Assembly: GCA_001002285.1 (NCBI GenBank)
Contig: LCLX01000003.1
Coordinates: 76,915 to 140,914 of the forward strand
Length of the DNA stretch: 64,000 bases
DNA from: Microgenomates group bacterium GW2011_GWC1_46_15
GTDB taxonomy: Bacteria > Patescibacteriota > Microgenomatia > UBA1400 > UBA12028
Reading direction: 5' to 3'
Of this stretch, positions 23,732 through 43,520 are shown in pieces. The position numbers and the translations under genes are program-made. Below the pieces are notes generated by a model that saw only the letters and a list, made by a program, of their open reading frames with translations, did not search any database and was not told the origin of the DNA. The stretch's first letter is position 1; every line of letters starts with the position of its first letter.

Positions 23732-25447
23732 TTACATCGAACTTGTTGTTTCGTCCGATCCTGCGCTCACCGTCTCGATTGCTTCGCCGGAGCGCGCAAG
23801 CGTCTTGCGCCATGGATCCATTTTCCCCCAGATTTTCTTGAGGATATATAACTCTTCTACGTGGAGCACCAATGCAAATATAATATATGCGCCCATGCCA
23901 ATCAGGCTTACAACACCCGTTAACATCAGCAGTCCAAAGGTTCGCGTGGTGTCAAAAATAACGTTATCCAAAAGCTTCATGGGAAAATAGAGGCCGATTG
24001 CCATAAGCAGGGCCGCCGCAAACATTTTTGCCTGCGGACCAACAATCTTCTGCAAAGAAAACTGCACTTTCGCGTGCAACAACAAAAACAACGCCACTGC
24101 TTCAAAAAATCCTGTTGCTGCGATAGATACCGCAAGCCCAACCAATCGCACATTTGCGGTCGTATCGCCCACATATGTGATGTACCACCCCATCAAGACG
24201 CCCAACACCATCGAGAGCAACGACACAAAGAATGGTCGGCGCGTATCGTGCATCGCATAAAATCCGCGAACGAGTACGTGTGTCATTGCCTGCGCCGCAA
24301 CCGAAAGCGCCATCACGCCAACCAATCTTCCAGTTAGTACTGTGTCAGCCCACGGAAAATTTTTTGCCCCGAATGCGAAACGAACAATCGGAATGCGCAA
24401 AATCAATAATAAAACCGATGCAGGTAACGCAAAAAAAGTGACTTGGTGGAGCGATTGTGTGAGAAGCGCGCGGAATTTATCCATGTCCCCCTCGCTTGTT
24501 TCTTTTGCCAAAAACGGCAATGCGGCTTGGCCAATTGGCACGCCGAACACGCGGATCGGGATGGTCATAAGCCGCTGGGCAAAACGCATGAGTGTTAAAT
24601 TAGCACCAGTAATCGAAGTGATAAAAAAGGTTAAAAAATATGGCTGAATGAGGTCAATCCCCTCACCTAACGCGCGGGGCAACGTGAGCCGCATCACATC
24701 GTGCACTCCGGCATGTTTCCATAGGATAGAAAAGTAGTACCGGAATCCCAGTTTCATCGCGAGTGGAATTTGCAGTGCCATGTGCGCGAACGCACCCAGC
24801 AATACGCCATACACCGGGCCAAAAATACCAAAATACCTGCTGAGTACAACCGTGCCAAAAATGATGCCGAGGTTGTACACTACGGGCGATAACGCGGGAA
24901 TAATGAATCGCTGATACGACTGAATCATGCCGGACATAAAGTTTGAGACCGCAAAAAAGAACTGCGCAAACAACATGATGCGCGTCATGCTTGCCGCGAG
25001 CGTTACTTGTGATTCAGAAAATCCCGCACCAGTCATAAACCGGATGATTTGCGGCGCAAAAATAAACACGACGGTTCCCGCGCACACAAATAACAACAGC
25101 ACTATGTTAATGACACTCGAGGCCATATGAAATGCGTCACGTTCGTCTTTATGTTTGTACTTCGTGAACACTGGAATAAACGCCGCGGAAAACGCACCAA
25201 CGACTAACAATTGGAATACTAAATCAGAAGGCTGAAACGCAACCCAATACGCGTCTAATTGTTCCTGTGTTTTTGTTGTTGGATTGTAAAAGGTTGAAGC
25301 AAGCAAACGATAACTCAGAAGACCGGTGAGCGATGATAATAATACCGATGCCGTCAAAATTGCCGCCGCAGAAAGAATCGAAGTCTGCTGTTGCTCGAGC
25401 CATTGTTTTGCGCCGTTTTGGAAATAATTGAACATCCACTTAAACAT
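23732..25447 (-). CDS. murJ: Lipid II flippase MurJ (MviN)
   Basis: About 14 TM. Conserved N-terminal GAFSAAFIPVF block typical of MurJ. Confidence 0.75.
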   Translation of the reverse strand: MFKWMFNYFQNGAKQWLEQQQTSILSAAAILTASVLLSSLTGLLSYRLLASTFYNPTTKTQEQLDAYWVAFQPSDLVFQLLVVGAFSAAFIPVFTKYKHKDERDAFHMASSVINIVLLLFVCAGTVVFIFAPQIIRFMTGAGFSESQVTLAASMTRIMLFAQFFFAVSNFMSGMIQSYQRFIIPALSPVVYNLGIIFGTVVLSRYFGIFGPVYGVLLGAFAHMALQIPLAMKLGFRYYFSILWKHAGVHDVMRLTLPRALGEGIDLIQPYFLTFFITSITGANLTLMRFAQRLMTIPIRVFGVPIGQAALPFLAKETSEGDMDKFRALLTQSLHQVTFFALPASVLLLILRIPIVRFAFGAKNFPWADTVLTGRLVGVMALSVAAQAMTHVLVRGFYAMHDTRRPFFVSLLSMVLGVLMGWYITYVGDTTANVRLVGLAVSIAATGFFEAVALFLLLHAKVQFSLQKIVGPQAKMFAAALLMAIGLYFPMKLLDNVIFDTTRTFGLLMLTGVVSLIGMGAYIIFALVLHVEELYILKKIWGKMDPWRKTLARSGEAIETVSAGSDETTSSM

Positions 25448-25601: not shown

Positions 25602-27011
25602 ATGAAACTGTCCGAACTCTTAAAGAAGAAAATCCCGACCATTCTCGGCCTTGTTTTCCTTGGCGGAGGTCTGGTGGTTGGGCTACTCGTACTTGGTCAG
25701 GGAACCGGCGGATTCTTGCCAAAAGCCAGTCCAGAAACAACGCCAAAACAACTCCGCATTACGAATATTACCGACAGTGCATTCACCGTTTCCTTTTTAA
25801 CCGACACCGCGGTGCCCGGGTACGTGAAGTATGGCACCGACCAAGGCCAACTTAAGACACAGGTGTCCGACGACCGCGATCAACTCACAGGAGCGGTGGG
25901 CCAGTTTACAACGCACCACATTACTCTGCGCAACCTTTCGCCCGCAACAAAGTATTTTTTTACGATTGGCACTGCAAGCCGGACAGTCTACACCGATGGT
26001 GGAAATCCGTATAGTACGACAACCGCGCCAAGAGCAACCGGCACGCCGGACGCGCTCACGGTGTATGGAAGCGTACTCACGAGAGCCGCAACGCCGGCGC
26101 AAGACAGTATCGTGTATGTGTCTGTTGATGGCGCGTCCCCGCTTTCATCGCTTGTAAAATCATCCGCAGGATGGGCCATTCCCCTTTCCACCGCACGCGC
26201 GACCGATCTCAAATCGTTTGCGCCCATTACCACGCAAAGCACATTGAACATTTTTGTGCAGGGAAAAGATGCCGCACAAACGTCACGCGTTACCGCGCTG
26301 GTGAAAGATGCCCAACCGGTTGCCGCGATCACGCTTGGACAGTCGCAGGATTTAACGCAAGGCGCGGGTACGCAAACAACAACGGGGGCGACGGGTGATA
26401 CGTCGCAATTTTCCGCGAGCCAACTCAACTCTGCTACAGAGTCAACAACTTCTGGTGGAACGAATGGAAGTTCTAACACCATTCAATTTTTAAATCCTTC
26501 GCAAAACGGCGAAGAGGTGAACACAACAAAACCAGAGATTCAAGGAAAGGCGCCCGCTTCAACGACGCTCATAATCAAGGTCGAGTCCGATCCCGTGTAT
26601 ACCGGAACAGTGCAAACCGATGCGCAAGGAAACTGGACGTACACGCCACCGGCGAATCTTACTCCGGGAGAGCATACTGTAACCGTGAGTTATACCGATG
26701 CCGGTGGTGTTTTGCGATCGGAAAAACGCACATTCTTAGTGTTGGCAAGCGGTTCGAGTTCTTTGCCCGCGCTTACGTCAACTCCATCTGCTACGCCACT
26801 GCCGCGTGTGTCTACGCCAGCAACAGGATCCGGTATTCCACGCGCGGGAAGCACTGGACAAACATTCGCACTTTTATTTGCCGGCTTGTTCTTTATCCTT
26901 GGTGGAGCGTTGTATTGGCAAAAATCACTTGCATATATGGCCGCGGACGAACGAACAATGCAATCAGTTTCGCTTGACGACAATAACCAGGAACCCTATG
27001 CTGAAAGATAG
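25602..27011 (+). CDS. Secreted/surface protein with FN3/Ig-like beta domains and a C-terminal IPRAGSTGQ + TM segment
   Basis: N-terminal signal-anchor. Thr/Ser/Gly-rich beta-rich repeats. C-terminus ...GIPRAGSTGQTFALLFAGLFFILGGALYW. Confidence 0.55.
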   Translation: MKLSELLKKKIPTILGLVFLGGGLVVGLLVLGQGTGGFLPKASPETTPKQLRITNITDSAFTVSFLTDTAVPGYVKYGTDQGQLKTQVSDDRDQLTGAVGQFTTHHITLRNLSPATKYFFTIGTASRTVYTDGGNPYSTTTAPRATGTPDALTVYGSVLTRAATPAQDSIVYVSVDGASPLSSLVKSSAGWAIPLSTARATDLKSFAPITTQSTLNIFVQGKDAAQTSRVTALVKDAQPVAAITLGQSQDLTQGAGTQTTTGATGDTSQFSASQLNSATESTTSGGTNGSSNTIQFLNPSQNGEEVNTTKPEIQGKAPASTTLIIKVESDPVYTGTVQTDAQGNWTYTPPANLTPGEHTVTVSYTDAGGVLRSEKRTFLVLASGSSSLPALTSTPSATPLPRVSTPATGSGIPRAGSTGQTFALLFAGLFFILGGALYWQKSLAYMAADERTMQSVSLDDNNQEPYAER

Positions 27012-27017
27012 AAAAAC

Positions 27018-29147
27018 ATGAGCGATACAACAGTCCTGCCACCACTCACTCCGCAAACACCATCAACGCCACAGGTGCCGCAGATGACTCCTGCGTCAAC
27101 GCCACTCATGCCAACACCGCCCGCCGAGGTGTTCGGTGATGATATAAAAAGTGATATACCCTCAATAAAACCATCGTCGGTAACGCCACTTGTTTCCACT
27201 CAACCACCGGTATCAACCCCACCACTCACCAAGCCCGCTGATACACACACTTCACTCGATCAAGCACTCGCCGACCTCGAAAAAGAAGCGATGAAGCTTG
27301 CAGGAGATGAAGGAAAACAAACAAAAGAAGTTCAACCAAAGATTGCTGAATCAAAATCTGTAGAGAAGCCAGTTGAAAAAATTGGTGAAAAACTTGCTGA
27401 GCCTGCGCCGATGAAACAAGAGCTTCCCTCACTATCTAATGATTTAGAAAAGCCTTTTGTTGTTACTCCAAAAACAGACACGCTTCCACCATTGCCCCCC
27501 ACTTCTCCCGTCATTAAACCCATGATTCAGCTTGCTGAAAAACCAGCGGTAAAACCAGTAGCTCCTGTTACGCCAGGCGCCGGAATGGAAACACTCAAAG
27601 CGCACACATCATCCACAACATCCGTGTTTGATACCAAAATGGAAAGTGTAGAAGAGAAACCAACCGTTACTCCCCCTGTTACTTCTCAGCCAGTAGAAAA
27701 AGGAAAGAAGAAGGAAAAAGATACTACTGTGGAAAGTAGTGCGGATAGTGGTTCTGGAAAAAAGAAAAAAGGATTCGTAAAGAAAATTGTTGCTGCCGCG
27801 GCGCTAGCGGTACTCGTGATTGGGTTAGGTGTTGGTATTTTTGTTGCACAACAATCGCAGGATGTGAGACAACAAGCTGCTTCTGGCTGCATTATTGTAA
27901 ATGGCGGAACAAAAGATGCTGGTATTTGGTGTGCTAATGGTGATTGGATAAAACACTGTGGGGATGCTGTTAATGTTCCATCAGATGAAGCTATGAAGGC
28001 TTGTGAAGACAAAGTGAATGAGTTAAATGGTGTTACAGAACCAGTACCCCCCACTAATGACCAATCCTCAACTACAACTAGATGTACCGCCAAGGATGGT
28101 TCTCTCGGAGAAACGTGTGGGGACTTAAGCAAGTGCGATATCGCTGGAGGATGTAACCCTGCTTGTGGAAGTGGCACAAGAGATGGAAAAATTTGCGACA
28201 TACCAAACGGGTACTGTACATCAGGTTATTCTTGTCGTCCTGGGAGCAATTCTGTCAATGTGAAAAAATGTGATGGGAATCAATGTGTTAATTCATGGTG
28301 TGATACGGCAGATGTTGGTACAGATAGATGTAAAACATGTTCAAGTAACTCAGAGTGTACCGTAGATAATAGTAGTCTCCCCACATGTGCAACCGGTCTT
28401 GACTGTAACCTCCCAGGAGACCGATTTCCAACGGGAGCCATAAGTTGCGCGAGTCCCGTTAGTGGAAAGACAATGTCTTGTTGTCCCGCTGGATATAAAA
28501 GAAATAGTCTAGATCCTACAACAAATTACTGTGTCCCCAGTACAAGCGGGAATTCCTGTCCCAACGATTCTTCAAAACAAATTGCAAAATGCTATAAGTT
28601 TGTGTGTCCAAATGGATGCGAACTCAATAAGGATGACCCTAATGGTGTTGAAGCCTGGAGATGTAGCACTTCTACTCCTGGTGTACAAATCCAGGAACTT
28701 TCCGGAGCTGCTTGTCTTTCTGCTTCTCTTAATGGACAGTGCGGTCAAATCGACATGATTGATACCCAAGGAAACTATTGCGGATATACTGCCTCAGGGT
28801 ATAACTGTGGTGGAAGCTGCCAAGGTAACACACCCCCCTTATCCAACCCTCCCGACGAATCCCCTCCTCCAACAAACCCACCGGGTGCTCCCATGTGCCA
28901 GGGAATTGCGAAAGACATAACCGCGCCCAAAGCCGGTGACCAAGTTGCGTTCACGTGTACCCAATCCACCGACGCAACCCGGTACGAGTTCCGATACAGG
29001 GTCGGCAGTGGCGCGTTTACCGCGCTCGATCCGCTCAACGCAACCGCGAGAACATCCAAATCACTTACTGTACAAGACGGCACGTATGATGTGCAATGTC
29101 GCCCATGTACTAACAACACATGTGCAAGTTGGAGCACTGCAAACTAA
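27018..29147 (+). CDS. Type II membrane protein: about 250 aa Pro/Lys/Glu-rich disordered N-terminus, single TM, Cys-rich ectodomain
   Basis: Low-complexity PTPP/KPVEK repeats. KKKKGFVKK basic patch before the TM (AAAALAVLVIGLGVGIFV). About 60 Cys in the C-terminal 430 aa. Confidence 0.55.
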   Translation: MSDTTVLPPLTPQTPSTPQVPQMTPASTPLMPTPPAEVFGDDIKSDIPSIKPSSVTPLVSTQPPVSTPPLTKPADTHTSLDQALADLEKEAMKLAGDEGKQTKEVQPKIAESKSVEKPVEKIGEKLAEPAPMKQELPSLSNDLEKPFVVTPKTDTLPPLPPTSPVIKPMIQLAEKPAVKPVAPVTPGAGMETLKAHTSSTTSVFDTKMESVEEKPTVTPPVTSQPVEKGKKKEKDTTVESSADSGSGKKKKGFVKKIVAAAALAVLVIGLGVGIFVAQQSQDVRQQAASGCIIVNGGTKDAGIWCANGDWIKHCGDAVNVPSDEAMKACEDKVNELNGVTEPVPPTNDQSSTTTRCTAKDGSLGETCGDLSKCDIAGGCNPACGSGTRDGKICDIPNGYCTSGYSCRPGSNSVNVKKCDGNQCVNSWCDTADVGTDRCKTCSSNSECTVDNSSLPTCATGLDCNLPGDRFPTGAISCASPVSGKTMSCCPAGYKRNSLDPTTNYCVPSTSGNSCPNDSSKQIAKCYKFVCPNGCELNKDDPNGVEAWRCSTSTPGVQIQELSGAACLSASLNGQCGQIDMIDTQGNYCGYTASGYNCGGSCQGNTPPLSNPPDESPPPTNPPGAPMCQGIAKDITAPKAGDQVAFTCTQSTDATRYEFRYRVGSGAFTALDPLNATARTSKSLTVQDGTYDVQCRPCTNNTCASWSTAN

Positions 29148-29162
29148 CAAAAAGATAACACT

Positions 29163-30422
29163 ATGACATTAAAACCAAAAACACGGGCGCTTCTTTTGAT
29201 TGCAGGATCGCTGTTGACTGTGATTCTTGTCGTTGCGACCGTGATTATTTCTCTGCGGTTGAAAAATCAAGGCAGCCGATCGGTAACCCCAACAACACCG
29301 GAATCAAAACCTTCCGCGGATGTTACCGCGTCATGCGCGCTTACGTTTACAGTGGGAACGCAACTTATTCAATGTGATGTTCCAACTATATACAAAAATG
29401 ATTCTCGGAATAGTTCTGGAATATATTTTACTTCTCCTAATGACATTATTGACCCAACAAAAACAAATTTTTCTCCTGGACAAATAATAGTTCTTAAGCT
29501 TCCCATAAAAAATGAAGAAGATGATTTGGAGTATCCAACTGCCGCATGGACTGATGTATTAAGTACACAGCTAACATTTGTTGACGGTGGTAGTGGATGT
29601 ACATACGAACAATCTAATCGTACTGTCACATGCCACACCGGAAATATGCTTTCTTCTTTTATGAGCTGGTTTCGTGTCCGTATAAATGATAGTGCAACTG
29701 GAAAAATAACAAATACTGCAACTATTACCCCGGGAGGATCCGACCCAAGTTCCTGTAGTGTTGAAATTACCATTAGTAGTGCCCCCACCCCGACGCCCAC
29801 TCCAACGCTTGACGCCGGTTTCCTCGTCCAAAAATTCAATGATAAAAATAATAATAAGGCGCGCGATAGCGGTGAAGCAGGTTTGGATTGGGACTTCGAG
29901 TGGAAACTCAATGGCGATAACAACTTCCGCGCGTATCAAACGTATGTCGACAAAAACGGTGAAGGTGGTCGCGTTGGTGGGCTGAAAGACGGTGACAAAG
30001 TCCACATCCGCGAAAAAAGTAAGAGTGGTTGGAGCGCGACAAACGGCACCGAGCAAACATTTACCGTCAAACTTGGTGAAACATATGTTGCATATTTTGG
30101 AAACCGCCAACCAACAACGGTTGGGTGCAACAATAGCTGTTCTGCAGATACTGATTGTGCCTCCGGACTCTTCTGTTCCAAAGCAACTGGCTCCACAAGT
30201 GGCGTGTGCCGCAACAATGCGTGTGTAAACAAAACAAACTGTACGTGTGATGTTGTTACCTCAACCTCAACACCAACAACGATCGTAAAAGCTTCTCCTA
30301 CTCCGACTTCAGTGCCCGAAGCGCCTCTGCCAGAAGCAGGTTCAACCGGTCAATCAATACTGTTATTCCTCGGCGGAACCACGATGACGGTTCTTGGAGT
30401 TATTGGACTGCTTGCGCTGTAG
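29163..30422 (+). CDS. Secreted/surface protein with a C-terminal LPEAGSTGQ + TM segment
   Basis: N-terminal signal-anchor. TPTPTPT linker and a Cys-rich knot. C-terminus PLPEAGSTGQSILLFLGGTTMTVLGVIGLLAL. Confidence 0.55.
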   Translation: MTLKPKTRALLLIAGSLLTVILVVATVIISLRLKNQGSRSVTPTTPESKPSADVTASCALTFTVGTQLIQCDVPTIYKNDSRNSSGIYFTSPNDIIDPTKTNFSPGQIIVLKLPIKNEEDDLEYPTAAWTDVLSTQLTFVDGGSGCTYEQSNRTVTCHTGNMLSSFMSWFRVRINDSATGKITNTATITPGGSDPSSCSVEITISSAPTPTPTPTLDAGFLVQKFNDKNNNKARDSGEAGLDWDFEWKLNGDNNFRAYQTYVDKNGEGGRVGGLKDGDKVHIREKSKSGWSATNGTEQTFTVKLGETYVAYFGNRQPTTVGCNNSCSADTDCASGLFCSKATGSTSGVCRNNACVNKTNCTCDVVTSTSTPTTIVKASPTPTSVPEAPLPEAGSTGQSILLFLGGTTMTVLGVIGLLAL

Positions 30423-30727: not shown

Positions 30728-30733
30728 CGTATG

Positions 30734-30806
30734 TGGGAGCGCTTGGATTTGAACCAAGAACCTTGAAGGTATAAGCTTCCTGCGCTAACCGTTGCGCCAC
30801 GCTCCC
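30734..30806 (-). tRNA. tRNA-Ile (anticodon UAU), no encoded CCA
   Basis: Hand-folded cloverleaf. Acceptor GGGAGCG/CGCTCCC, D-arm GCGC-AACGGTTA-GCGC, anticodon arm GGAAG-CTTATAC-CTTCA (U33, UAU, A37), T-arm CTTGG-TTCAAAT-CCAAG, discriminator A73. Confidence 0.75.
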
Positions 30807-30911: not shown

Positions 30912-31193
30912 ATGAATAAAAAAATTCGTACACAAAATATTATTAAAGTCGGGAATAGCCTCGCCGTTACATTGGATAAAGCCTTTGTTGACGCCTACAA
31001 ATTAAAAGCAAAACAGCAGGTTTACATACTTTATACTCAGTATCCCCCGCGAATTATTGTGAAACCCGATTTTTCTCAAGGACCATCACTCACTCAGTCC
31101 GATATAGAAAAATTGCCAAAAGAGTTCCGTAATTGGGTGAAAAAATTCCTCAAGGAAGATCACGAAGCTCTTAAGGCTTTAACACATCTATAG
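30912..31193 (+). CDS. AbrB/MazE-like swapped-hairpin DNA-binding protein (putative)
   Basis: IKVGNSLAVTLDKAFVD motif resembles AbrB/SpoVT-type domains. 93 aa. Confidence 0.4.
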   Translation: MNKKIRTQNIIKVGNSLAVTLDKAFVDAYKLKAKQQVYILYTQYPPRIIVKPDFSQGPSLTQSDIEKLPKEFRNWVKKFLKEDHEALKALTHL

Positions 31194-33521
31194 TTTCGCC
31201 CGCACCGTAATTTCCGCCTCAACAATCTCCTTGTGCTTTCCGTACTTCAACAGTGACAACTCCTTAATCATCTCCGCAACTTTGGGGTTCTTCATTGCAT
31301 TTTCTTTCGTCATATCTCGAGTCAAATCCATACTAAATGCTGGCACCGGTTCATTATTCACAATTGTCTTGGTATATACATGGAATCGCTCAATATTGGT
31401 CAAATCGCTCTCATTAAACACTGGAGCAAACTCGTGTTGCAAAAAGTTTGCGTCCGGCACACCAATGCGGAAACTAATCAATGTACCGACGTTGCCAAAC
31501 ACCGCGTTCTTTACGTCTTCCTCGATCTGCGCGACAAACTGGTTTGCCACGATGAGGTTCAATTTGTACTTGCGGGCTTCGGACAAAATTGTCGCAAAAT
31601 CTTGTGTTGCAAAGTTTTGGAACTCATCAACATAGAGATAAAAGTCGCGGCGTTGCTCGAGCGGAACGTTAACACGCGACATAGCGGCTGCCAAAATCTT
31701 TGGCACCATAATCAAGCCCAAAAACTTGGCATCTTCTTCTCCAAGCGCACCTTTGGACAAGTTCACGAGTAAAATCTTGCCCTCATCCATCACTTCGCGT
31801 AGATTAAACGCGGACTTGCTCTGGCCGATAATGTTGCGCATTGTTTTGTTCGTGATAAACCGGCCAAACTTGGACACGATGTAGTCAAGCACCTCCGACT
31901 TATGGAAGTCGCTTGTTTGGGCAATTTGGTCGGTCCAGTACCGGCGCACAACGGGGTCTTTCACTTTTGGCAGTAAATCCTGCAAGAACTTGCTGTCCGT
32001 CAGCACGCGCACCAACTCAATAAACGTGCTTCCCGGCTCGGCCATGATCGTGAGCATAGCGTTGCGGATCGCGTGTTCAAACCGCGGGCCAATGATACCG
32101 GTTTTGTGTGGATCGTAGAGTTTGTACATCAGCCCAATAATCGAGCCAGCCACAAAGTGCATCTGTTCTTCGGTTTCTGCTTCCATCATGTTCAAACCCA
32201 TAGGACGGTCGGTGTTTGACGGGTTAAAGTAAATAACATCCTCCGCGCGCTCGGGCGGCATGAGCAAGAGTAAATCCTCAACGAGGTCGCCGTGCGGATC
32301 AATCACCGCCATACCTTTGCCCGCGCGGATATCCTGCAATACCATGTCTTTCAAAAACTCAGACTTCCCGGCGCCGGTTTTACCAACAATGTACATGTGG
32401 CGCTGGCGGTCTTTTTCGGCAATATAAATATTGCGTGAGGAACCGCGGTACACACTGCGCCCCAAGAACAGGCCGGAGGTCGGGATTTCGGAAGGAGCCG
32501 GCGCGTTTTTCGCTTTGAGCCAATAAATATGGTGCGTTTCAACCGTTTTGTTCGGGAAGTGGATCATCGTCGCTAACTCTTCGCTGTTGAACACCGTAAC
32601 GCCCCGGCCAAACAACGGCATGTACCGGTAAATGAAGTCAATCATGAAGAGATGTTTGAACCAAATACGGGTCTTTTTGAGATGATTGTGCGCAGACGAG
32701 TACTGCGCGAACGACCCCACAATGTTTGTGAGGTGCGAGTTTGCCGCCATCGCGCTGGTTGAAGAAACAACGATGCGGATTGCAGTTCGGAAACCGGATT
32801 TGCCAAGTTTCGTGTCGATAGAGTCCAAAGACTTGGGATCGTGTGTATAGCTCGCCTTCTCGGGATCTGCTTCTTTTTTCTTTGTTGAAGCAAGGTAACT
32901 TGCACCACGTCTCTGCCATCCTTCACCCGCGGGCTGGAGAACATACTGCACAATCGCCCCCTCCCCCTGCTGCATCTTGGAAAGCGCCGATGTTAACAGC
33001 GATAATCCGTCGGTTGGCAACTCTTTAAATGTTTTAATCGGGAAAAACTCAGACTCTTTGAGTGTGAGCGCAGCAAACGCGACTTTGCCTCCCTCGCTGA
33101 AAATATTTGGTTCATCAACTTCATTGATTTCCGCGCCCGGATATGCCCCATTGATCTGTTTTTCAATCAAGTCGCGCAAGTTCCGCGGACAGGTAAAGTA
33201 AAACTTGATTTCATCGTGAAGCGCGATCACTTCGAACGCGAAGTGGTCTTCGGCGTGGAGAAAATGGAAAAATCCTGATTTCTTTAACGAGTGAAGCGAG
33301 GCAAACATCTGTTCAGCCGCGTCAATTTTAATTTCGTTGTCTTTTGGAAGCGCGACCAACAAATGAATGAACTGCAGACTGTACTCCTCACGGTCGCGGT
33401 GCTTCCACCACTGGATAAATGCATACACAAACGCCGCGAAAAGCGCCACACTCAGCACAAGCACTACTACCGTACTCAATAATGCGGTCATCCGAACGAC
33501 AAAAAGATCAAGTTGATTCAT
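31188..33521 (-). CDS. Membrane-anchored P-loop ATPase of the HerA/FtsK/VirD4 (T4CP-like, DUF87-like) superfamily
   Basis: N-terminal TM. Walker A IVGKTGAGKS followed by VIDPHGDL. Walker B LYVDEFQNF. 777 aa. Confidence 0.55.
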   Translation of the reverse strand: MNQLDLFVVRMTALLSTVVVLVLSVALFAAFVYAFIQWWKHRDREEYSLQFIHLLVALPKDNEIKIDAAEQMFASLHSLKKSGFFHFLHAEDHFAFEVIALHDEIKFYFTCPRNLRDLIEKQINGAYPGAEINEVDEPNIFSEGGKVAFAALTLKESEFFPIKTFKELPTDGLSLLTSALSKMQQGEGAIVQYVLQPAGEGWQRRGASYLASTKKKEADPEKASYTHDPKSLDSIDTKLGKSGFRTAIRIVVSSTSAMAANSHLTNIVGSFAQYSSAHNHLKKTRIWFKHLFMIDFIYRYMPLFGRGVTVFNSEELATMIHFPNKTVETHHIYWLKAKNAPAPSEIPTSGLFLGRSVYRGSSRNIYIAEKDRQRHMYIVGKTGAGKSEFLKDMVLQDIRAGKGMAVIDPHGDLVEDLLLLMPPERAEDVIYFNPSNTDRPMGLNMMEAETEEQMHFVAGSIIGLMYKLYDPHKTGIIGPRFEHAIRNAMLTIMAEPGSTFIELVRVLTDSKFLQDLLPKVKDPVVRRYWTDQIAQTSDFHKSEVLDYIVSKFGRFITNKTMRNIIGQSKSAFNLREVMDEGKILLVNLSKGALGEEDAKFLGLIMVPKILAAAMSRVNVPLEQRRDFYLYVDEFQNFATQDFATILSEARKYKLNLIVANQFVAQIEEDVKNAVFGNVGTLISFRIGVPDANFLQHEFAPVFNESDLTNIERFHVYTKTIVNNEPVPAFSMDLTRDMTKENAMKNPKVAEMIKELSLLKYGKHKEIVEAEITVRAKL

Positions 33522-33533
33522 ATGTTTCTATAT

Positions 33534-34052
33534 CTACGCGATTCTCCGGTACACCACCATTCCTTTAAACTTTTTCATCACACGGATACACCACTCCGCA
33601 AGCCACCGTACGCTGTCTGTCACGCTTTTTGTGACACCCGTTTGGATACCGGATTGCGTGAGCGGGAGCACAATGACCGGCTGCGCCGCGTAGTCTCCCG
33701 TTGGCATGGTTGCCGTTTTGTCTGCCACCACCACTTGTTTTGGCGCGGTAATCTCGTGCGACTCCACTTTTTCCATCCACGTTTCAAGCTCTGGCGGAAG
33801 TTCTGCTGATCTTTCCGATTCAACAATCTGAGCCCCGGGGACTTCCTTTACTAATGTGTCAAGACCGCCCGTCGCGGTGCGTTCTTTTGTACCACTCGTT
33901 TTCCCGCTTACTGCTCCAAGAGGGTTTAATGGGTCAGTTGTTGCGGTTGACTGCAGTACGGCGTTCGCCAAACTGTCGTCTTGCACAATAGCTTGAGGTG
34001 TTTGCGGTGGTGCCTGTGATGTTTGTGGTTGATTCTGGGCAGAGTCCGGCAT
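33534..34052 (-). CDS. Hypothetical protein, low complexity (Gln/Thr/Pro-rich)
   Basis: ORF only. Lies between the cobO-like gene and the T4CP-like gene on the same strand. Confidence 0.3.
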   Translation of the reverse strand: MPDSAQNQPQTSQAPPQTPQAIVQDDSLANAVLQSTATTDPLNPLGAVSGKTSGTKERTATGGLDTLVKEVPGAQIVESERSAELPPELETWMEKVESHEITAPKQVVVADKTATMPTGDYAAQPVIVLPLTQSGIQTGVTKSVTDSVRWLAEWCIRVMKKFKGMVVYRRIA

Positions 34053-34064
34053 GGAATCACTATA

Positions 34065-34652
34065 TCAGAAATCGAGTCCCTTGACAGCGAGTTTTCCCGC
34101 GTCAAAAGGATGTTTTTCTTTCTGAATCACACTCACGAGATCCGCAACTTTCTTTAAGCCAGCCGAGGCATTCCGGCCGGTCAATACAACGTGCGTTTTC
34201 CCTCGCTGTTTAAGCAGTTCCAATACATCGCTTTCCTTTAGTAATTTATCGTGGACCGCGTTGCACACTTCATCAAGAAATAAAACATCAATATGTTGAA
34301 GAAGAAGCGCGCGGACTTTCTCCAGCGCCTCGTGGGCAGCACGACGGTGCTGGGCTGGCGTATCATCATCAACAATCACACTTGATTGTGCGCGGACGGT
34401 TCTAACCGCTCCATGTTGCTGGACTGACCTCAGATAAAATCCCTTGCCCATCGGGAAGAAAAGGAGCCGTTTTTTTGCCGAAGTATTCAGAATTTCGCTA
34501 AGGTGGTGCTCGTTAATCCCCCACCGCTTTTCTTTGTACCAACTCACCCATCCCACACTCCATCCATTGGTTAGCGCGCGCAAAAGCATTCCAAGCGCCG
34601 CGCTCGTTTTTCCTTTGCCATCACCCGTAAATATGTAGATTAAACCGGACAT
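34065..34652 (-). CDS. cobO: Cob(I)yrinic acid a,c-diamide / cob(I)alamin adenosyltransferase (CobA/CobO/BtuR family)
   Basis: P-loop IFTGDGKGKTSAALGMLLRA matches the CobA GNGKGKTTAA signature. About 195 aa. Confidence 0.75.
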   Translation of the reverse strand: MSGLIYIFTGDGKGKTSAALGMLLRALTNGWSVGWVSWYKEKRWGINEHHLSEILNTSAKKRLLFFPMGKGFYLRSVQQHGAVRTVRAQSSVIVDDDTPAQHRRAAHEALEKVRALLLQHIDVLFLDEVCNAVHDKLLKESDVLELLKQRGKTHVVLTGRNASAGLKKVADLVSVIQKEKHPFDAGKLAVKGLDF

Positions 34653-34703
34653 ATCACACACTCCGTGGTAGAAATGAGAATGCGACGCCATTGTATGCCG
34701 AAG

Positions 34704-36299
34704 TTATTGCGCGAACAAGCCTCGGAAGACTCTGTAGTACCAGGGAGTCTGCTGGCTTCCTCCTGGAATCGTTCTTGGAACAGGAATGTACCGTATTGGG
34801 TTATACCAGGGTAACGGAGTGGGTGTTGTGACTTGCTTTGTTGTTGGTTTTGATGTTGGTTTCGGTGTCGCACACACTCCGCTGTATGAAACTTTTACTC
34901 CGTTTTGTTCTGCCGTACACGCATTGCTATATGTTCTGCCGTCCGCACCACATACAGGCATGTATTCCTGCGAACATACTCCATTTGTTAATGGTGTGGA
35001 AATCGGTGTTGCGTATGGGTACGGTGTGGCATAAGGGTACGGAGTCGCGTACGGAGGATATGGCGTAGTGTATGGGTACGGTGTGGCATATGGAGGGTAT
35101 GGCGTAGCGTATGGATATGGAGTGGTGTATGGATAAGGTGTTGATAACGGCGGAGGTGTTACAAGAATCGGCGTTGCATACGGACGGGAAGTTGCATACG
35201 GATATGGTGTGACTGGTGGACGAGGAGAAGGACACATAAGTACCGGCTCGCAAGGAGCTTTTATACACGTAACCTGTGCGTAGTAACATCCACTCGATGT
35301 GGGAGTAGCTTTTGATGTTGGAAGAGGGCTCGATATTGGAGTAGGCATTGGGGTAGATTGCGGAGTCGCTCTTGGTGTTGAAATCGGAGTAGCGGATGTT
35401 GTTAACTTCGACAAATCAACCTCAACGACCGTACTAGGGAGAATACCCATCACTTTTTGGCTGACTATTTTTGTACTCATTCTCACTGGAGGAGCTTGAG
35501 TTTTTGGAACCGCGGCAAGATCTGAGGCGGCGTATACCATAACGAGAGGCAATCGGGTGTGCAACGCCACCTGAACAGCCGCATCTTTAGCATTCTTTAC
35601 ACGCCCTTTGAGTGTTACCACATTTTTTACCACTGTTATCCCGTCAAAAGCAAAGAAATCGTACAACGCCCCCTTTGTCATAACAAAACCACTCCCCTTG
35701 TAGACCACGGACTCTGTTGATGGAGGTGATGAGGGTGGAGTCGTTCGTTGTTGCGAAGATGGTGTTTTTCCGTCTTCAACAGCTACCGCTGCGTATACCG
35801 GTTGGACTACACTTATTGGTTTTGTCGTTTCTATCGAGATACTTGCCTCAACGGAAGTAATCGTGATGTTTTTGTTTAGCTGAGACGCCTCCATATACAG
35901 AGCTTGTCCGGTCCCGTATTGGGGAGATGGCTTCTCTGCTTCCGTTATTTCTATTTTTGCGGATTGATCTGCGCTTGCTTGTGATCGATTATCAGTGGGA
36001 ACTTGTAGAAGATCCAGTCCGACAATACCACCAGAAATAATAATGGCCGCGGTTATACCCCCAATCAGATAATTTTTTATAATGTTTGAAGATGGACCAG
36101 TGGTTTTTGGTTGAGGTTCCGGAGTGGGTTCTATAACGGGTTCAACTGGTTGGATTGGTGCTATTTCTGGGGCTGGCGATACTACTGGTGGAGCAGGAAT
36201 TGAAGCATCAACGGGAGACAAAGAGCTCTCGGGTACTAGATGTTGTGGGCTGGAGTTTGGATCTACGGGCACTTGCCCGGAGAGTACTGGATCGTCCAT
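34704..36299 (-). CDS. Type II membrane/surface protein with Pro-rich N-terminus, PYPYATP tandem repeats and a C-terminal Kazal-type domain
   Basis: TM GGITAAIIISGGIVGL after a Pro-rich N-terminus. Repeats (A/T)TPYP(P)Y x about 9. C-terminal CSQEYMPVCGADGRTYSNACTAEQNGVKVSYSGVC fits the Kazal consensus PVCG[SA]DGxTYxNxC...C. Confidence 0.6.
   Translation of the reverse strand: MDDPVLSGQVPVDPNSSPQHLVPESSLSPVDASIPAPPVVSPAPEIAPIQPVEPVIEPTPEPQPKTTGPSSNIIKNYLIGGITAAIIISGGIVGLDLLQVPTDNRSQASADQSAKIEITEAEKPSPQYGTGQALYMEASQLNKNITITSVEASISIETTKPISVVQPVYAAVAVEDGKTPSSQQRTTPPSSPPSTESVVYKGSGFVMTKGALYDFFAFDGITVVKNVVTLKGRVKNAKDAAVQVALHTRLPLVMVYAASDLAAVPKTQAPPVRMSTKIVSQKVMGILPSTVVEVDLSKLTTSATPISTPRATPQSTPMPTPISSPLPTSKATPTSSGCYYAQVTCIKAPCEPVLMCPSPRPPVTPYPYATSRPYATPILVTPPPLSTPYPYTTPYPYATPYPPYATPYPYTTPYPPYATPYPYATPYPYATPISTPLTNGVCSQEYMPVCGADGRTYSNACTAEQNGVKVSYSGVCATPKPTSKPTTKQVTTPTPLPWYNPIRYIPVPRTIPGGSQQTPWYYRVFRGLFAQ
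35000..35260. repeat. Coding tandem repeat (about 24-27 nt units, Tyr/Pro-rich) within the 34704-36299 gene
   Basis: Repeated tatgggtacggtgtggcata / tatggcgtagYgtatgg units are visible in the nucleotide sequence. Confidence 0.7.
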
Positions 36300-37907: not shown

Positions 37908-40244
37908 TTAGAGTTTGCACTTGCTGTACCCACACTGTAGGCAGAGATTGCACCCCTCTTGATTTTGCATGAGCGCGCCGCACTCCGGACACTTTTCTCC
38001 TTCTTCGGGAATATCAAAAACATCTTCACGCAGTACTTCTTGCTTTGTGAGCGTGGAAAAATCCTTTCGCTGCGCAAGCGGTGTAACTCGGTGCTGACTC
38101 TGCATAATTTGATGTGATTTTTTTGGCGTTGAAGCCTCTGCTGGTGAAGGTGCCGCTTGGGTTTGGTGCTGAACAGAAAGAACCTGTGTTGCCTTCGATG
38201 TATCGCGGTACACCGTAATACCTTTGCACCCCAATTTCCAGGCGAGTAGGTAGGCGCCGCGGACATCCTCAAGCGTTGCGTTGGCGGGAAAGTTAATTGT
38301 TTTACTCACCGCATTATCGGTATGATCTTGAAACGCCGCCTGCATGCGCACGTGCCACTGCCAATCAATATCATGCGAGGTAACAAATACGCGTTTGAGC
38401 TCGGATGAAACGATTGTGCTGTGCTGTACTCCACCGGTTTGTGTTACTTCAGCAACAATCGCATTGAACTCACCATTACTCCCGACATGTTCTTTCAACG
38501 CTCGCTCAAAATATTTATTAATGTATGTGAGGCCAGCGGTGTCAACAACATTCTTTACGTAACTCAGCGCAAAAATCGGCTCGATGCCACTGCTACAGTC
38601 CGCCGCCATTGAAATTGTTCCCGTTGGTGCAATTGTTGTAATTGCGACGTTGCGGAACTTGCGCGGTTTCTTTTTGTGTCCATAGGTATGTGTAACCGGA
38701 TCATATCCTTTGGCAAACCAACTGTTTTTCCATTGTGGAAACGCGCCTTTTTCTTTTGCCAATTTTTCCGAAGCGCTCCACGATGATTCTTGTACGTGTT
38801 TCATGATTTTCTTTGCTAAAGCAACGCCTTCATCGGAGTTATATGGAATGTTGAGTTGAAGCAGAAGGTCGGCCCAACCCATTACACCCAACCCAATCCG
38901 CCGGTGTTGGTGCACGGTTTTTGTGATTTGCGGAAGAGGGTATGTGCACGCGTCAATCACGTTGTCTAACATACGAGTCGCGATCGCGGTAACAGTGGCT
39001 AAACGGTCCCAGTTTATGGTGGTGTGACCTGTTTTTTCGTCTTTTAGTGCAAATGCAGAAAGATTGATTGATCCGAGGTTACACGAATCAAATGAGTGCA
39101 AAGGTTGTTCGCCACAGGGATTAGTCGCATAAATCGGCCCAACAGAGTCTAACAATGGGTTGTTGCGGTTGATCACATCCCAGTAAATCATCCCAGGATC
39201 CCCCGTTCTCCACGCAAGCGATATGATCTGATCCATCAACATACGCGCCAAAATATTTTGGACTGGTTTGTTGGTACGCGGATTCACGAGTGCAAACTCT
39301 TTATCTTTTTCCACAGCACGCATAAACGCATCCGTTGTCCCAACCGAAATGTTGAAGTTGCTAATCTCCCCCTCTTCACTCTTGCACGTAATGAACTCCA
39401 AAATGTCCGGGTGATGAACGGTTAAAATACCCATGTTGGCACCGCGTTGTTTCCCACCCTGCATAACTTGGCGCGTTGCAATGTCAAACACTTTCATGAA
39501 TGAAACCGGGCCTGTAGCAAAACCGCCGGAAGATTTTGTAATCCCATCGCCTTTGGGGCGTAAGCGTGAAAAATCAAAACCCGTCCCACCACCTTTTTGA
39601 TGCACAAGTGCCGTCCACTTCACCGCATCAAAAATACCTTCCATACTGTCTTCAACTGGAAGGACAAAGCAACTTGCAAGCTGATTTTGTGGTGTTCCCG
39701 CGTTATTGAGTGTACGACCACCAGGCAGAAATTCAAATTTTGTCATGACGTCATAAAATTTTTCTTCCCAGATTTTCTTGTGCTTTTTTTCTACAGTGGC
39801 AAGTGTGTGGGCAACACGGCGGAACATTTGGCCGGGAGTTTCCATCGGCTTTCCATCCTGATCGTGAACAAGATACCGCCGTTCAATGACTTTGAGCTGA
39901 TTGATATTGAGATTGAGATCATTCTCTACTCCAATAACGGTCTCCGCTTTGCGGATTTTGGCATGTTCAGCGCGATACAAAATGTATGCTTTTGCGGTCT
40001 TAAAATGGCCAGCGGCCATGAGCACTTGCTCAACCGTATCCTGCACTTGTTCAACGGTAACCAGTTCTTTGCGGACAACAATCACTTTTTCGATAATGCC
40101 CGCGGCGATTCCCGCTAACCGTTGTGCTTCTTTGTCATCAAACTCGCCCGTTGCAATTGCTGCTTTGTGAAGCGCCAACGCGATTTTAACTTTTTCAAAC
40201 GGCATTTCGCGCCCATCGCGCTTAACGATTGTCATGGAGCTCAC
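37908..40244 (-). CDS. nrdJ: Class II (adenosylcobalamin-dependent) ribonucleotide reductase, paralog 1
   Basis: ATP-cone-like N-terminus. Radical-site loop TNPCGEQPL. C-terminal CxxC...CxxC zinc ribbon (CPECG...CLQCGYSKC). Confidence 0.85.
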   Translation of the reverse strand: MSSMTIVKRDGREMPFEKVKIALALHKAAIATGEFDDKEAQRLAGIAAGIIEKVIVVRKELVTVEQVQDTVEQVLMAAGHFKTAKAYILYRAEHAKIRKAETVIGVENDLNLNINQLKVIERRYLVHDQDGKPMETPGQMFRRVAHTLATVEKKHKKIWEEKFYDVMTKFEFLPGGRTLNNAGTPQNQLASCFVLPVEDSMEGIFDAVKWTALVHQKGGGTGFDFSRLRPKGDGITKSSGGFATGPVSFMKVFDIATRQVMQGGKQRGANMGILTVHHPDILEFITCKSEEGEISNFNISVGTTDAFMRAVEKDKEFALVNPRTNKPVQNILARMLMDQIISLAWRTGDPGMIYWDVINRNNPLLDSVGPIYATNPCGEQPLHSFDSCNLGSINLSAFALKDEKTGHTTINWDRLATVTAIATRMLDNVIDACTYPLPQITKTVHQHRRIGLGVMGWADLLLQLNIPYNSDEGVALAKKIMKHVQESSWSASEKLAKEKGAFPQWKNSWFAKGYDPVTHTYGHKKKPRKFRNVAITTIAPTGTISMAADCSSGIEPIFALSYVKNVVDTAGLTYINKYFERALKEHVGSNGEFNAIVAEVTQTGGVQHSTIVSSELKRVFVTSHDIDWQWHVRMQAAFQDHTDNAVSKTINFPANATLEDVRGAYLLAWKLGCKGITVYRDTSKATQVLSVQHQTQAAPSPAEASTPKKSHQIMQSQHRVTPLAQRKDFSTLTKQEVLREDVFDIPEEGEKCPECGALMQNQEGCNLCLQCGYSKCKL

Positions 40245-40663
40245 TTCTCTTCCTCCGGAGTGTAAAGCGGATGTCCCCCACGGGTTGCCGCTTTGATTTT
40301 GTAGTACGCACGGTCTTTTTCCTCTTTTGTAAGGTTGGGATGAAAAATTTCTTCCGGATACTTGACCGCATTCTTTGCCATCTTACGTTCAAACGCTTCC
40401 GCCATATCTATGCCAAGTTTCTGACCCAAATTGGCAAGCCACCACAATACATCGCTCATTTCCTCGCCAATCGCTTCTTTAATGCGCTGATTTTTTTCAA
40501 CATCTTCTCCTTTGAGCCATTGGAAATGTTCGAGAAGTTCGGCACTCTCCAACACCAAAGAAAGCGCGAGGTCTTTTGGATCTTCTTTTGTCCATCCGCG
40601 TTTTTTGCGGAACTTTTCAATAAGCTCTTTAACTTGGGCGATTGTTGTTGTTTGGTCAGTCAT
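40241..40663 (-). CDS. mazG: MazG-family nucleoside triphosphate pyrophosphohydrolase
   Basis: MazG EExxE/ELLEHF-type helical motifs (SLVLESAELLEHFQW). 4 bp overlap with nrdJ. Confidence 0.7.
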   Translation of the reverse strand: MTDQTTTIAQVKELIEKFRKKRGWTKEDPKDLALSLVLESAELLEHFQWLKGEDVEKNQRIKEAIGEEMSDVLWWLANLGQKLGIDMAEAFERKMAKNAVKYPEEIFHPNLTKEEKDRAYYKIKAATRGGHPLYTPEEEK

Positions 40664-40674
40664 TGTTCTCCTTT

Positions 40675-41163: not shown

Positions 41164-41204
41164 AATATGTGTCTGTAATACCTAGATAAGATAAAAATTT
41201 CTTC

Positions 41205-41256
41205 GAGGAACTCAGGGCGCAGGGTCCTCTGGAGACGAAAAGAGATTTTTATCGAG
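41205..41256. repeat. Conserved hairpin-forming intergenic repeat, copy 2
   Basis: GAGGAACTCAGGGCGCAGGGTCCTCTGGAGACGAAAAGAG, about 85% identical to 30677-30727. Lies immediately 3' of nrdJ paralog 2 and 5' of the Nudix gene. Confidence 0.6.
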
Positions 41257-43500: not shown

Positions 43501-43520
43501 AGATTTCTCGATTCTACCGA

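What the first reader, a model, noticed from the sequence alone, without database searches (positions are those of the whole stretch)
25602..30422. Surface-protein cluster with a shared, non-canonical C-terminal [LI]PxAG-STGQ + TM sorting-signal-like motif
Two of three adjacent secreted proteins end in nearly identical segments: GIPRAGSTGQTFALLFAGLFFILGG... and PLPEAGSTGQSILLFLGGTTMTVLGVIGLLAL. These are followed by a hydrophobic helix, with no tail in one and an acidic tail in the other. The arrangement resembles an LPXTG-type tripartite sorting signal, but the motif ([LI]PxAG plus invariant STGQ) matches no sortase, exosortase or rhombosortase signal I know. No sortase (TLxTC) gene is visible in the window. 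It could be a lineage-specific cell-surface anchoring or processing signal. The cluster lies next to murJ and about 300 bp upstream of a tRNA 3' end.
Basis: seen in the sequence. Interest (0 to 1): 0.7.

Follow-up and report, generated by a model that had tools for sequence, protein, structure and literature searches.

The report
Relaxed LPXTG-type anchor signals, CPR bacterium
Two unrelated surface proteins of a Pacebacteria (CPR) bacterium end in a near-canonical sortase-type cell-wall sorting signal with Ala in place of Thr (LPxAG); this is a lineage-specific variant of a known signal, carried by proteins of a conserved type IV pilus-linked operon, not a new sorting system.

Summary
ORF A (25602-27011) and ORF C (29163-30422) end in IPRAGSTGQ and LPEAGSTGQ, each followed by a hydrophobic helix. 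They share nothing else, and the shared peptide uses different codons. STGQ is not invariant: it decays within close relatives. The conserved core is [LIVQ]-P-x-[A/S/T]-G plus a helix. Orthologous tails in relatives carry canonical LPRTG, LPETG and LPKTG. The only curated signal model hit by the window tails is LPXTG (TIGR01167: 15.0 and 14.7 bits, cut-off 15.9). An in-silico Ala-to-Thr change lifts them to 20.1 and 19.1 bits. LPxAG and LPxSG substrates are documented in Firmicutes, and a sortase family is reported as near-ubiquitous in Microgenomates. The best reading is a relaxed sortase-type signal. Three things are new. C-type tails lack the basic tail. A and C tails co-vary within genomes (P about 0.003). 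Both proteins belong to a conserved lepA-murJ-pilN-pilO-X-A-B-C operon. The main gap is that no sortase lies in the window, within about 10 kb of its ends, or in any related locus, so a sortase in this genome is not verified. Interest is modest.

The parts
25602..27011 (+). ORF A, 469 aa. N-terminal TM helix, fn3 domain, second beta-sandwich, Big_13 Ig-like domain, Ser/Thr/Pro linker, then the C-terminal signal.
   Evidence: ORF. Pfam Pur_ac_phosph_N/fn3 and Big_13. AF2 model with mean pLDDT 84. Large family: 3927 representatives at E<=1e-3.
26835..26861 (+). A signal motif IPRAG plus STGQ (aa 412-420). It lies in a disordered linker just before the helix.
   Evidence: In 65 homologs, P413 is present in 65/65 and G416 in 64/65; position 415 is S 44, A 13, T 4, G 2. 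pLDDT is below 50 at 411-413.
26862..26918 (+). A C-terminal hydrophobic helix (aa 421-439). T421, G428 and G435 are conserved at heptad spacing.
26919..27008 (+). A cytoplasmic tail (aa 440-469). It has a Lys at +2 and is then net acidic. It is not conserved among homologs.
27018..29147 (+). ORF B, 709 aa. Pro-rich N-terminal region, internal TM helix (about aa 255-278) and a Cys-rich ectodomain. It has no C-terminal signal. It is a syntenic partner of A and C.
29163..30422 (+). ORF C, 419 aa. N-terminal TM helix, CLIPPER/DUF11-like domain, Cys-rich module, Pro/Thr linker, then the C-terminal signal.
   Evidence: Weak DUF11 and RrgB isopeptide-domain hits. Homologs carry PF01345.
30327..30353 (+). 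C signal motif LPEAG plus STGQ (aa 389-397).
   Evidence: 19 distinct C-type tails: 16 LPxAG and 3 LPxTG.
30354..30419 (+). C terminal hydrophobic helix (aa 398-419). It ends at the C-terminus (..GLLAL) with no charged tail.
23732..25447 (-). murJ (lipid II flippase). Conserved neighbour of the operon. In more distant relatives pilN, pilO and a small TM protein lie between murJ and A.

Best explanation
A and C carry relaxed LPXTG-type C-terminal cell-wall sorting signals. The consensus is [L/I/V/Q]-P-x-[A/S/T]-G, about 5 semi-conserved residues (S-x-x-x-T), then a membrane helix. Proposed mechanism (inferred): both proteins are exported through Sec by their N-terminal hydrophobic segment. The C-terminal helix holds them in the membrane. 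A membrane-anchored sortase encoded elsewhere in the genome cleaves between position 4 (Ala here) and Gly. It then transfers the protein to the peptidoglycan precursor lipid II. The window encodes MurJ and two class A PBPs, so a wall is made. The residues after Gly (STGQ here) are a species-level flavour of the signal that co-evolves with the enzyme. Both proteins are stalk-like surface proteins: A is fn3/Ig, C is CLIPPER plus a Cys-rich module. They belong to a conserved operon, lepA-murJ-pilN-pilO-small TM protein-A-B-C, so they are probably wall-attached envelope components linked to the type IV pilus machinery and not accessory adhesins. Shown: the motif, its conservation, its similarity to LPXTG, the T/A/S interchange, the within-genome co-variation and the synteny. 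Inferred: cleavage, the enzyme and the attachment site.
For: (1) Of 18950 NCBIfam and 24736 Pfam models, the window tails hit only LPXTG anchor models: TIGR01167 at 15.0 and 14.7 bits (cut-off 15.9) and PF00746 at 12.6-16 bits. (2) An in-silico Ala-to-Thr change gives 20.1 and 19.1 bits, and adding RRKK gives 26.4 bits. The natural homolog P0006 (LPKTG plus an RRK tail) scores 18.1 bits. (3) Orthologous C-type tails carry canonical LPxTG in the same slot: L017 LPRTG-STETT, L034 LPETG-ILDFP (its close counterpart P0011 has LPEAG-IFDTP), and P0006 LPKTG. (4) Bulk scan of 94 family tails: 29 hit TIGR01167 (best E 2.3e-4) and 11 more hits fall on other sortase-signal models, against 2 for VPDSG-CTERM and 1 for GPS-CTERM. 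(5) A and C are not homologous and encode the shared peptide with different codons. Their tails nevertheless co-vary within genomes: identity 24 against 14.9 +/- 2.8 in permutations, P=0.0028, n=7. This fits one shared recognition partner. (6) The motif is a conservation peak inside a disordered linker just before the helix. (7) Literature: a PF04203 sortase family occurs in 1020 CPR genomes against 12 non-CPR genomes and is near-ubiquitous in Microgenomates (PMC6744442). 'Sortase motifs' are reported on CPR surface proteins (PMC5220378). S. aureus has two LPxAG SrtA substrates (PMC3436756). E. faecium PrpA has LPxSG (PMC4682149). (8) The cargo types, CLIPPER and fn3/Ig stalks, are typical of wall-anchored proteins.
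Against: No sortase was found in the window, within about 10 kb of its ends, or in any of 47 related loci. The rest of this genome could not be searched, so a cognate sortase here is unverified. The tails score below the curated cut-off. C-type tails lack the positively charged tail that classical signals need, and A's tail is acidic. In the A family, position 4 is mostly Ser (44/65) and position 1 is often Val or Gln. In one subclade the Pro is replaced by Tyr, Phe or Met. These departures are unknown for characterised sortases. Helix residues T421, G428 and G435 are as conserved as the motif itself, which suggests the helix has a role beyond transient retention. Public annotation never labels these proteins LPXTG-anchored.
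Confidence: 0.6

Rival explanations
1. The tails are permanent, uncleaved C-terminal membrane anchors. The xPx[A/S/T]G element is a conserved hinge or helix cap at the membrane surface. The conserved helix face packs against PilN, PilO or other helices of the pilus platform.
For: T421, G428 and G435 lie at heptad spacing and are as conserved as the motif. The C-type helix and its terminal ..AL are conserved. There is no basic tail and no nearby sortase. The operon is tightly linked with the bitopic membrane proteins PilN and PilO. Some A-family members lack the Pro.
Against: Two non-homologous proteins share the same extracellular juxtamembrane peptide and co-vary in it within genomes. That is hard to explain by helix packing. 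The motif lies in a disordered linker. It has exactly the LPXTG geometry, with T/A/S interchange at position 4. The helix is on average less conserved than the motif: 1.9 against 3.2 bits.
Confidence: 0.2
2. This is a true sorting signal, but it is read by a non-sortase enzyme: an intramembrane or polytopic processing enzyme of the rhombosortase, CPBP/myxosortase or exosortase/archaeosortase type, or an undescribed one. That would make it a new lineage-specific sorting system.
For: A small residue at the putative P1 position, conserved helix glycines and the lack of a basic tail are compatible with intramembrane proteases (inference). A CPBP/Rce1-like gene lies in the window at 46898-47578. 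A few family tails weakly hit VPDSG-CTERM or GPS-CTERM. Tails co-vary within genomes.
Against: The window tails hit no exosortase, rhombosortase or myxosortase signal model. Only 3 of 94 family tails do, against 29 or more for LPXTG. The CPBP gene sits in a conserved cmk-CPBP-DUF5667-nrdR-RNR block unrelated to the operon. No such enzyme is adjacent in any locus. The family table of PMC6744442 lists a sortase but no exosortase, rhomboid or CAAX family among widespread CPR families. Canonical LPxTG occurs in orthologous tails.
Confidence: 0.14
3. A and C are subunits of a sortase-polymerised (SpaA-type) pilus built by a dedicated class C sortase.
For: C has a CLIPPER/CnaA-like domain and a weak hit to the RrgB isopeptide domain. 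Both carry LPXTG-like signals. They are adjacent genes.
Against: No sortase gene is adjacent in any of the more than 12 independent syntenic contexts. The candidate N-terminal Lys is not conserved. No pilin-motif or E-box model hit was found. The operon partners are type IV pilus genes.
Confidence: 0.05

Closest known systems
LPXTG cell-wall sorting signal of Gram-positive sortase substrates (TIGR01167 / PF00746), in particular the LPxAG variants of S. aureus (PMC3436756) and LPxSG of E. faecium PrpA (PMC4682149)
   Same: C-terminal position. Pentapeptide with L/I-P-x-small-G preceded by a Pro/Thr-rich linker and followed by a hydrophobic helix. Cargo made of Ig, fn3 or isopeptide-domain stalks. 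A peptidoglycan-containing monoderm host. Score within about 1 bit of the curated cut-off.
   Different: Ala or Ser, not Thr, is the norm at position 4. C-type signals end with the helix and have no basic tail, and A has an acidic tail. The five residues after Gly are semi-conserved and co-vary between substrates of one genome. Position 1 is often Val or Gln in the A family. The enzyme has not been identified in this genome.
Exosortase/archaeosortase signals (PEP-CTERM, VPDSG-CTERM, PGF-CTERM) and rhombosortase GlyGly-CTERM
   Same: Tripartite logic: a short motif, a helix, and removal of the C-terminus by a dedicated enzyme. A few A-family tails read VPDSG or IPDSG.
   Different: The window tails hit none of these models. 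There is no Arg-rich tail. No exosortase or rhombosortase gene is nearby. Hosts of those systems are mostly diderms or archaea.
pilMNOPQ-type type IV pilus alignment operons
   Same: A follows pilN, pilO and a small membrane protein in most relatives, the position where pilP and pilQ sit in diderms.
   Different: A is an fn3/Ig stalk protein with membrane helices at both ends, not a secretin or a lipoprotein. Fold search gives only generic adhesin stalks. The window's own clade has lost pilN and pilO from this locus.

Membership tests
LPXTG-type sortase sorting signal (TIGR01167/PF00746) | Signal lies at the extreme C-terminus, after a flexible linker | tested here: met
   The motif starts 31 aa (C) and 58 aa (A) from the end. 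It is preceded by a Pro/Thr/Ser linker that the model shows as disordered.
LPXTG-type sortase sorting signal (TIGR01167/PF00746) | Canonical pentapeptide L-P-x-T-G | tested here: not met
   The window has LPEAG and IPRAG. Position 4 is Ala (window), Ala more often than Thr in the C family, and Ser, then Ala, then Thr in the A family. This matches the documented LPxAG and LPxSG variants, not the canonical motif.
LPXTG-type sortase sorting signal (TIGR01167/PF00746) | Hydrophobic membrane-spanning segment directly after the motif | tested here: met
   19-22 uncharged residues begin 4-5 aa after Gly. The model shows a helix from residue 418.
LPXTG-type sortase sorting signal (TIGR01167/PF00746) | Short positively charged tail after the helix | tested here: not met
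   C ends with the helix. A has one Lys and then a net acidic 30-aa tail. Most C-type relatives also lack a tail, whereas most A-type relatives start the tail with Lys or Arg.
LPXTG-type sortase sorting signal (TIGR01167/PF00746) | Score at or above the curated model cut-off | tested here: not met
   TIGR01167 gives 15.0 (C) and 14.7 (A) bits against a cut-off of 15.9. PF00746 gives 12.6-16 bits against 20. One Ala-to-Thr change gives 20.1 and 19.1 bits.
LPXTG-type sortase sorting signal (TIGR01167/PF00746) | Cognate sortase (PF04203) encoded in the same genome | not testable with these tools
   None in the window, within about 10 kb of its ends, or in related loci. [quoted passage not shown]
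LPXTG-type sortase sorting signal (TIGR01167/PF00746) | Peptidoglycan wall and lipid II pathway as acceptor | tested here: met
   MurJ and two class A PBPs (Transgly plus Transpeptidase) are encoded in the window.
Exosortase / PEP-CTERM family signals (incl. VPDSG-CTERM) | Match to a PEP-CTERM-type model, an Arg-rich tail and an exosortase gene | tested here: not met
   The window tails give no hit. 2 of 94 family tails weakly hit VPDSG-CTERM. There is no Arg-rich tail, and no exosortase appears in the window annotation.
CPBP (myxosortase-type) or rhombosortase signals | Match to MYXO-CTERM or GlyGly-CTERM models, and an enzyme gene linked to the substrates | tested here: not met
   No model hits. 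The window's CPBP gene (46898-47578) lies in an unrelated conserved block 17 kb away. No rhomboid is annotated.
Sortase-assembled (SpaA-type) pilins | Adjacent class C sortase and a conserved pilin-motif lysine | tested here: not met
   No sortase in any syntenic locus. The N-terminal Lys candidates are not conserved.

The most novel reading that the evidence does not exclude
A and C are core, wall-tethered parts of the type IV pilus apparatus of monoderm CPR bacteria. They sit after pilN and pilO, where diderms have pilP and pilQ. They are attached by a lineage-specific sortase, or by an undescribed enzyme, that accepts Ala or Ser at the cleavage site, needs no basic tail, and reads an extended signal that co-evolves across all its substrates in each genome.
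Probability: 0.2. Interest if true: 0.65.

Novelty: new variant of a known kind. Interest (0 to 1): 0.35.

Why it matters
The envelope of CPR/Patescibacteria is poorly understood, and type IV pili are central to their episymbiotic lifestyle. If these tails are sortase signals, they define the substrate motif of the widespread CPR sortase: LPx[A/S/T]G, often without a basic tail. Current annotation misses this motif, and every public name for these proteins is generic. Reading it correctly would identify conserved wall-anchored partners of the PilN/PilO platform. In practice, a lineage-tuned signal model would let CPR surface proteomes be predicted much better. The finding does not reveal a new kind of sorting system.

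Tried and rejected
(1) A profile of 14 tails searched against the 5.8-billion-protein database found nothing at E<=10. The profile was too short, and one search was lost. (2) A single-sequence AF2 model of C was unusable, with pLDDT 39. (3) The hunt for the sortase covered Pfam annotation of the whole window through three look-ups, inspection of unannotated small ORFs, both window ends out to about 10 kb, contexts of five distant homologs, and phmmer with SrtA, SrtB and YhcS plus a catalytic-motif regex over 45 loci and 572 kb. All were negative. Seeding a database search with a Firmicute sortase was considered and rejected. The word index would return only close relatives of the seed, and no second search was left to walk to this genome. 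(4) The genome-contig scan gave only 6 loci, because broad alignments had no conserved stretch usable for back-translation. (5) The idea that the N-terminal PESKP-type motif supplies a pilin-like lysine was rejected, because the Lys is not conserved. (6) A link to the neighbouring VirD4-like ATPase was rejected, because orphan T4CP genes are common in Patescibacteria (PMC12102498) and distant relatives lack this neighbour. (7) Recent DNA duplication or gene conversion of the tail was rejected on codon usage.
Full report
OBSERVATION. Three co-directional ORFs fill 25602-30422. A is 25602-27011 (469 aa), B is 27018-29147 (709 aa) and C is 29163-30422 (419 aa). The gaps between them are 6 and 15 nt. 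A ends ...TGSG-IPRAG-STGQ-TFALLFAGLFFILGGALYW-QKSLAYMAADERTMQSVSLDDNNQEPYAER. C ends ...PEAP-LPEAG-STGQ-SILLFLGGTTMTVLGVIGLLAL. The pattern P.AGSTGQ occurs nowhere else in the six-frame translation. B has no such tail. murJ lies upstream on the opposite strand. A tRNA-Ile (anticodon TAT) lies 311 nt downstream on the minus strand. The description is therefore accurate.

SOURCE. Identical proteins are encoded in several 'Candidatus Pacebacteria' MAGs: GCA_003525295.1, GCA_003524785.1, GCA_001002295.1 and GCA_001001445.1. Pacebacteria belong to the Microgenomates group of the CPR (taxonomy strings in the supplement of PMC6744442).

NOT PARALOGY, NOT A DNA REPEAT. BLASTP between A and C aligns only the tail, 9 of 17 residues. 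At the DNA level, five of the six AGSTGQ codons differ, including Ser AGC against TCA. The shared peptide is thus kept at the protein level in two unrelated proteins. A has fn3/Pur_ac_phosph_N and Big_13 domains. C has weak DUF11 (CLIPPER) and RrgB isopeptide-domain hits, and its homologs carry PF01345.

WHAT IS CONSERVED. Thirteen homologs of C end in LPKAGSTGQ, LPAAGSTAE, LPKAGSTAQ, LPEAGSSAQ, LPDAGIPTP, LPVAGTSW, LPKAGSVLG, LPEAGIFDT, LPVAGIFEV, LPEAGSTFP, LPDAGIGLP and, in P0006, LPKTG followed by a helix and an RRK tail. STGQ therefore decays quickly. LPxAG plus a helix is the stable core. Across all loci I collected 19 distinct C-type tails: 16 LPxAG and 3 LPxTG. Two pairs are telling. 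L017 has LPRTG-STETT plus a helix and no tail. L034 has LPETG-ILDFP, while its near-identical counterpart P0011 has LPEAG-IFDTP. Thr and Ala thus exchange in otherwise matching tails.

Protein A belongs to a large family, with 3927 representatives at E<=1e-3. Of 108 full-length representatives, 82 end in xPxxG, a short spacer, a helix and a short tail. The counts are IPxSG 17, VPxSG 17, LPxSG 12, xPxAG 13 and xPxTG 5. In an alignment of 65 closer homologs the Pro is invariant and the Gly is present in 64 of 65. Position 4 is S 44, A 13, T 4, G 2. Position 1 is V 36, Q 16, I 8, L 3. The motif averages 3.2 bits of conservation against 1.9 for the helix.

COMPARISON WITH KNOWN SIGNALS. Scanned alone against NCBIfam and Pfam, the window tails hit only LPXTG anchor models. 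TIGR01167 gives 15.0 bits (C) and 14.7 bits (A) against a cut-off of 15.9. PF00746 gives 12.6-16 bits against a cut-off of 20. Changing the single Ala to Thr in silico gives 20.1 and 19.1 bits. Adding RRKK to C gives 26.4 bits. The natural LPKTG homolog P0006 scores 18.1 bits. In a bulk scan of 94 family tails, 29 hit TIGR01167 (best E 2.3e-4) and 11 further hits fall on other sortase-dependent signal models. Only 2 hit VPDSG-CTERM and 1 hits GPS-CTERM. LPxAG is carried by two S. aureus sortase A substrates (PMC3436756). LPxSG is carried by E. faecium PrpA (PMC4682149). The claim that the motif matches no known signal therefore does not hold.

A SHARED READER. Seven loci carry both an A and a C tail (A tail / C tail):
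- window: IPRAG-STGQT / LPEAG-STGQS
- L011: IPDSG-NLTPT / LPDAG-IPTPT
- L013: VPKAG-STEET / LPKAG-SVLGT
- L014: VPKSG-SVEQT / LPKAG-SVLGT
- L017: MPRSG-SATTT / LPRTG-STETT
- L028: VPKSG-SVGYT / LPKAG-STLET
- L034: VPSGG-LTTTL / LPETG-ILDFP

Over the variable positions, within-genome identity is 24, against 14.9 +/- 2.8 for all permuted pairings (P=0.0028). With BLOSUM scoring P=0.006, and the result is similar after removing one close relative. The loci are not fully independent. Still, co-variation between non-homologous proteins argues that both tails are read by one partner that drifts with the lineage. This is the behaviour of a sorting signal, not of two unrelated anchors.

STRUCTURE. An AF2 model of A built from 65 homologs has mean pLDDT 84. 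It shows an N-terminal helix (11-32), an fn3 domain (49-140), a second beta-sandwich (153-250), an Ig-like domain (295-380) and a disordered linker (381-417). The linker contains IPRAG. A helix begins at residue 418. Foldseek against the PDB returns only generic tandem fn3/Ig stalks of adhesins and S-layer proteins. CLIPPER/DUF11 is a CnaA-like isopeptide domain of surface adhesins (PMC12617251). Both cargos are typical of wall-anchored proteins.

GENOMIC CONTEXT. The trio is conserved. In L011, L016, L017, L029, L030, L033, L034, L042 and L045 the order is lepA-murJ-(rpsT)-pilN-pilO-small TM protein-A, followed in most of them by B and/or C. PilN (PF05137) and PilO (PF04350) are confirmed by Pfam. 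The window's own clade (window, L013, L014, L027, L028) lacks pilN, pilO and the small protein at this site. Instead it has an orphan VirD4-like ATPase downstream. Such orphans are common in Patescibacteria (PMC12102498). A and C are thus conserved envelope proteins tied to the type IV pilus alignment genes.

THE ENZYME. No sortase is encoded in the window. This rests on Pfam annotation through, a motif scan and inspection of small ORFs. None lies within about 10 kb of either end. None appears in any of the related loci, tested by phmmer with three classical sortases plus a catalytic-motif regex over 572 kb and by two further contexts. With the remaining caps I could not reach the rest of the genome, so the cognate sortase is not verified for this organism. 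Lineage-level evidence is strong. A PF04203 family is found in 1020 CPR genomes against 12 non-CPR genomes and is 'near ubiquitous in Microgenomates' (PMC6744442). That paper's table of widespread families lists no exosortase, rhomboid or CAAX family. The window does encode MurJ and two class A PBPs, so the lipid II acceptor pathway exists.

DEPARTURES FROM THE CLASSICAL SIGNAL. C-type tails end with the helix and have no basic residues. A's tail is acidic. Ser or Ala, not Thr, dominates position 4. Val or Gln is common at position 1 in the A family. One A subclade replaces the Pro by Tyr, Phe or Met while keeping [A/S/T]-G-S-V..T. T421, G428 and G435 in the A helix are as conserved as the motif. 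These points keep two rivals alive: an uncleaved functional anchor, and a non-sortase processing enzyme. The CPBP gene at 46898-47578 is not a good candidate. It sits in a conserved cmk-CPBP-DUF5667-nrdR-RNR block that lies at different distances from the operon in different genomes.

VERDICT. The interpretation as an unknown sorting signal is not supported. The tails are best read as a relaxed, lineage-specific form of the LPXTG sortase signal (confidence 0.6). I found no paper describing this form or its link to the pilN-pilO operon in CPR. Public annotation calls these proteins only hypothetical, Ig-like or fn3 proteins. That makes this a new variant of a known kind, of modest interest. The most useful follow-up is a whole-genome search for the sortase, plus a lineage-tuned signal model.

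Noticed in passing
window 30733-30806 (-): ARAGORN calls a tRNA-Ile with anticodon TAT (UAU). This is an uncommon way for bacteria to decode AUA, which is usually read by a lysidine-modified CAU tRNA.
   Followed up: no
window 29163-29330 (C N-terminus); L012 4164-5069; L035 8394-10808; P0001-P0014: A conserved Pro-rich motif, AP[TN][AV]PES[KR]P[KQSM]A, lies about 10 aa after the N-terminal (or internal) TM helix. It occurs in C-type proteins and, in some genomes, in B-type proteins. The A family has a related F.P[KR]A.PE.TP[KQ]. The Lys is not invariant and no family model matches. Its function is unknown.
   Followed up: partly
L011 1106-6869; L016, L017, L029, L030, L033, L034, L042, L045: The trio belongs to a conserved operon, lepA-murJ-pilN-pilO-small TM protein-A-B-C. 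A occupies the position after pilN and pilO where diderms encode pilP and pilQ. The window's clade has lost pilN and pilO from this locus.
   Followed up: yes
window 27018-29147; L002 7887-9985; L001 7955-9985: Gene B is intact (709 aa) in the window. It is split into three ORFs (243, 75 and 84 aa) in GCA_003525295.1 and is 676 aa in GCA_003524785.1. This is either strain-level variability or assembly error in a Cys-rich surface protein.
   Followed up: no
window 31188-36299 (-): An orphan VirD4/TrwB-like ATPase (DUF8128, TrwB_AAD_bind) is followed by a 172-aa protein, a CobA/CobO-like protein and a 531-aa Pro/Tyr-repeat protein. The last has a Kazal-like Cys-rich C-terminal module.
   Followed up: partly
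window 37908-46159 (-): Three ribonucleotide reductase large-subunit genes (778, 747 and 692 aa) plus nrdR lie within about 8 kb. This is unusual redundancy for a small CPR genome.
   Followed up: no
window 46898-47578 (-); L016 16221-16901: A CPBP/Rce1-like intramembrane protease sits in a conserved cmk-like-CPBP-DUF5667-nrdR-RNR block. It was considered as an alternative sorting enzyme but is not linked to the operon.
   Followed up: partly
L011 6871-11653 and 14362-16235: PMT-family protein O-mannosyltransferases and two FemAB-family genes flank the trio in a distant relative. This hints that the Ser/Thr/Pro linkers may be glycosylated and that the wall has peptide cross-bridges.
   Followed up: no
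window 26862-26918 (A aa 421-439): T421, G428 and G435, spaced seven residues apart on one face of the C-terminal helix, are as conserved as the motif Pro and Gly across 65 homologs.
   Followed up: partly
window 1-1412 and beyond the left end (L022 8172-11452): The cluster 7TM_transglut - ATP-grasp (ATPgrasp_ST) - MATCAP lies next to a DsbA-like thioredoxin. Its role is unknown.
   Followed up: no
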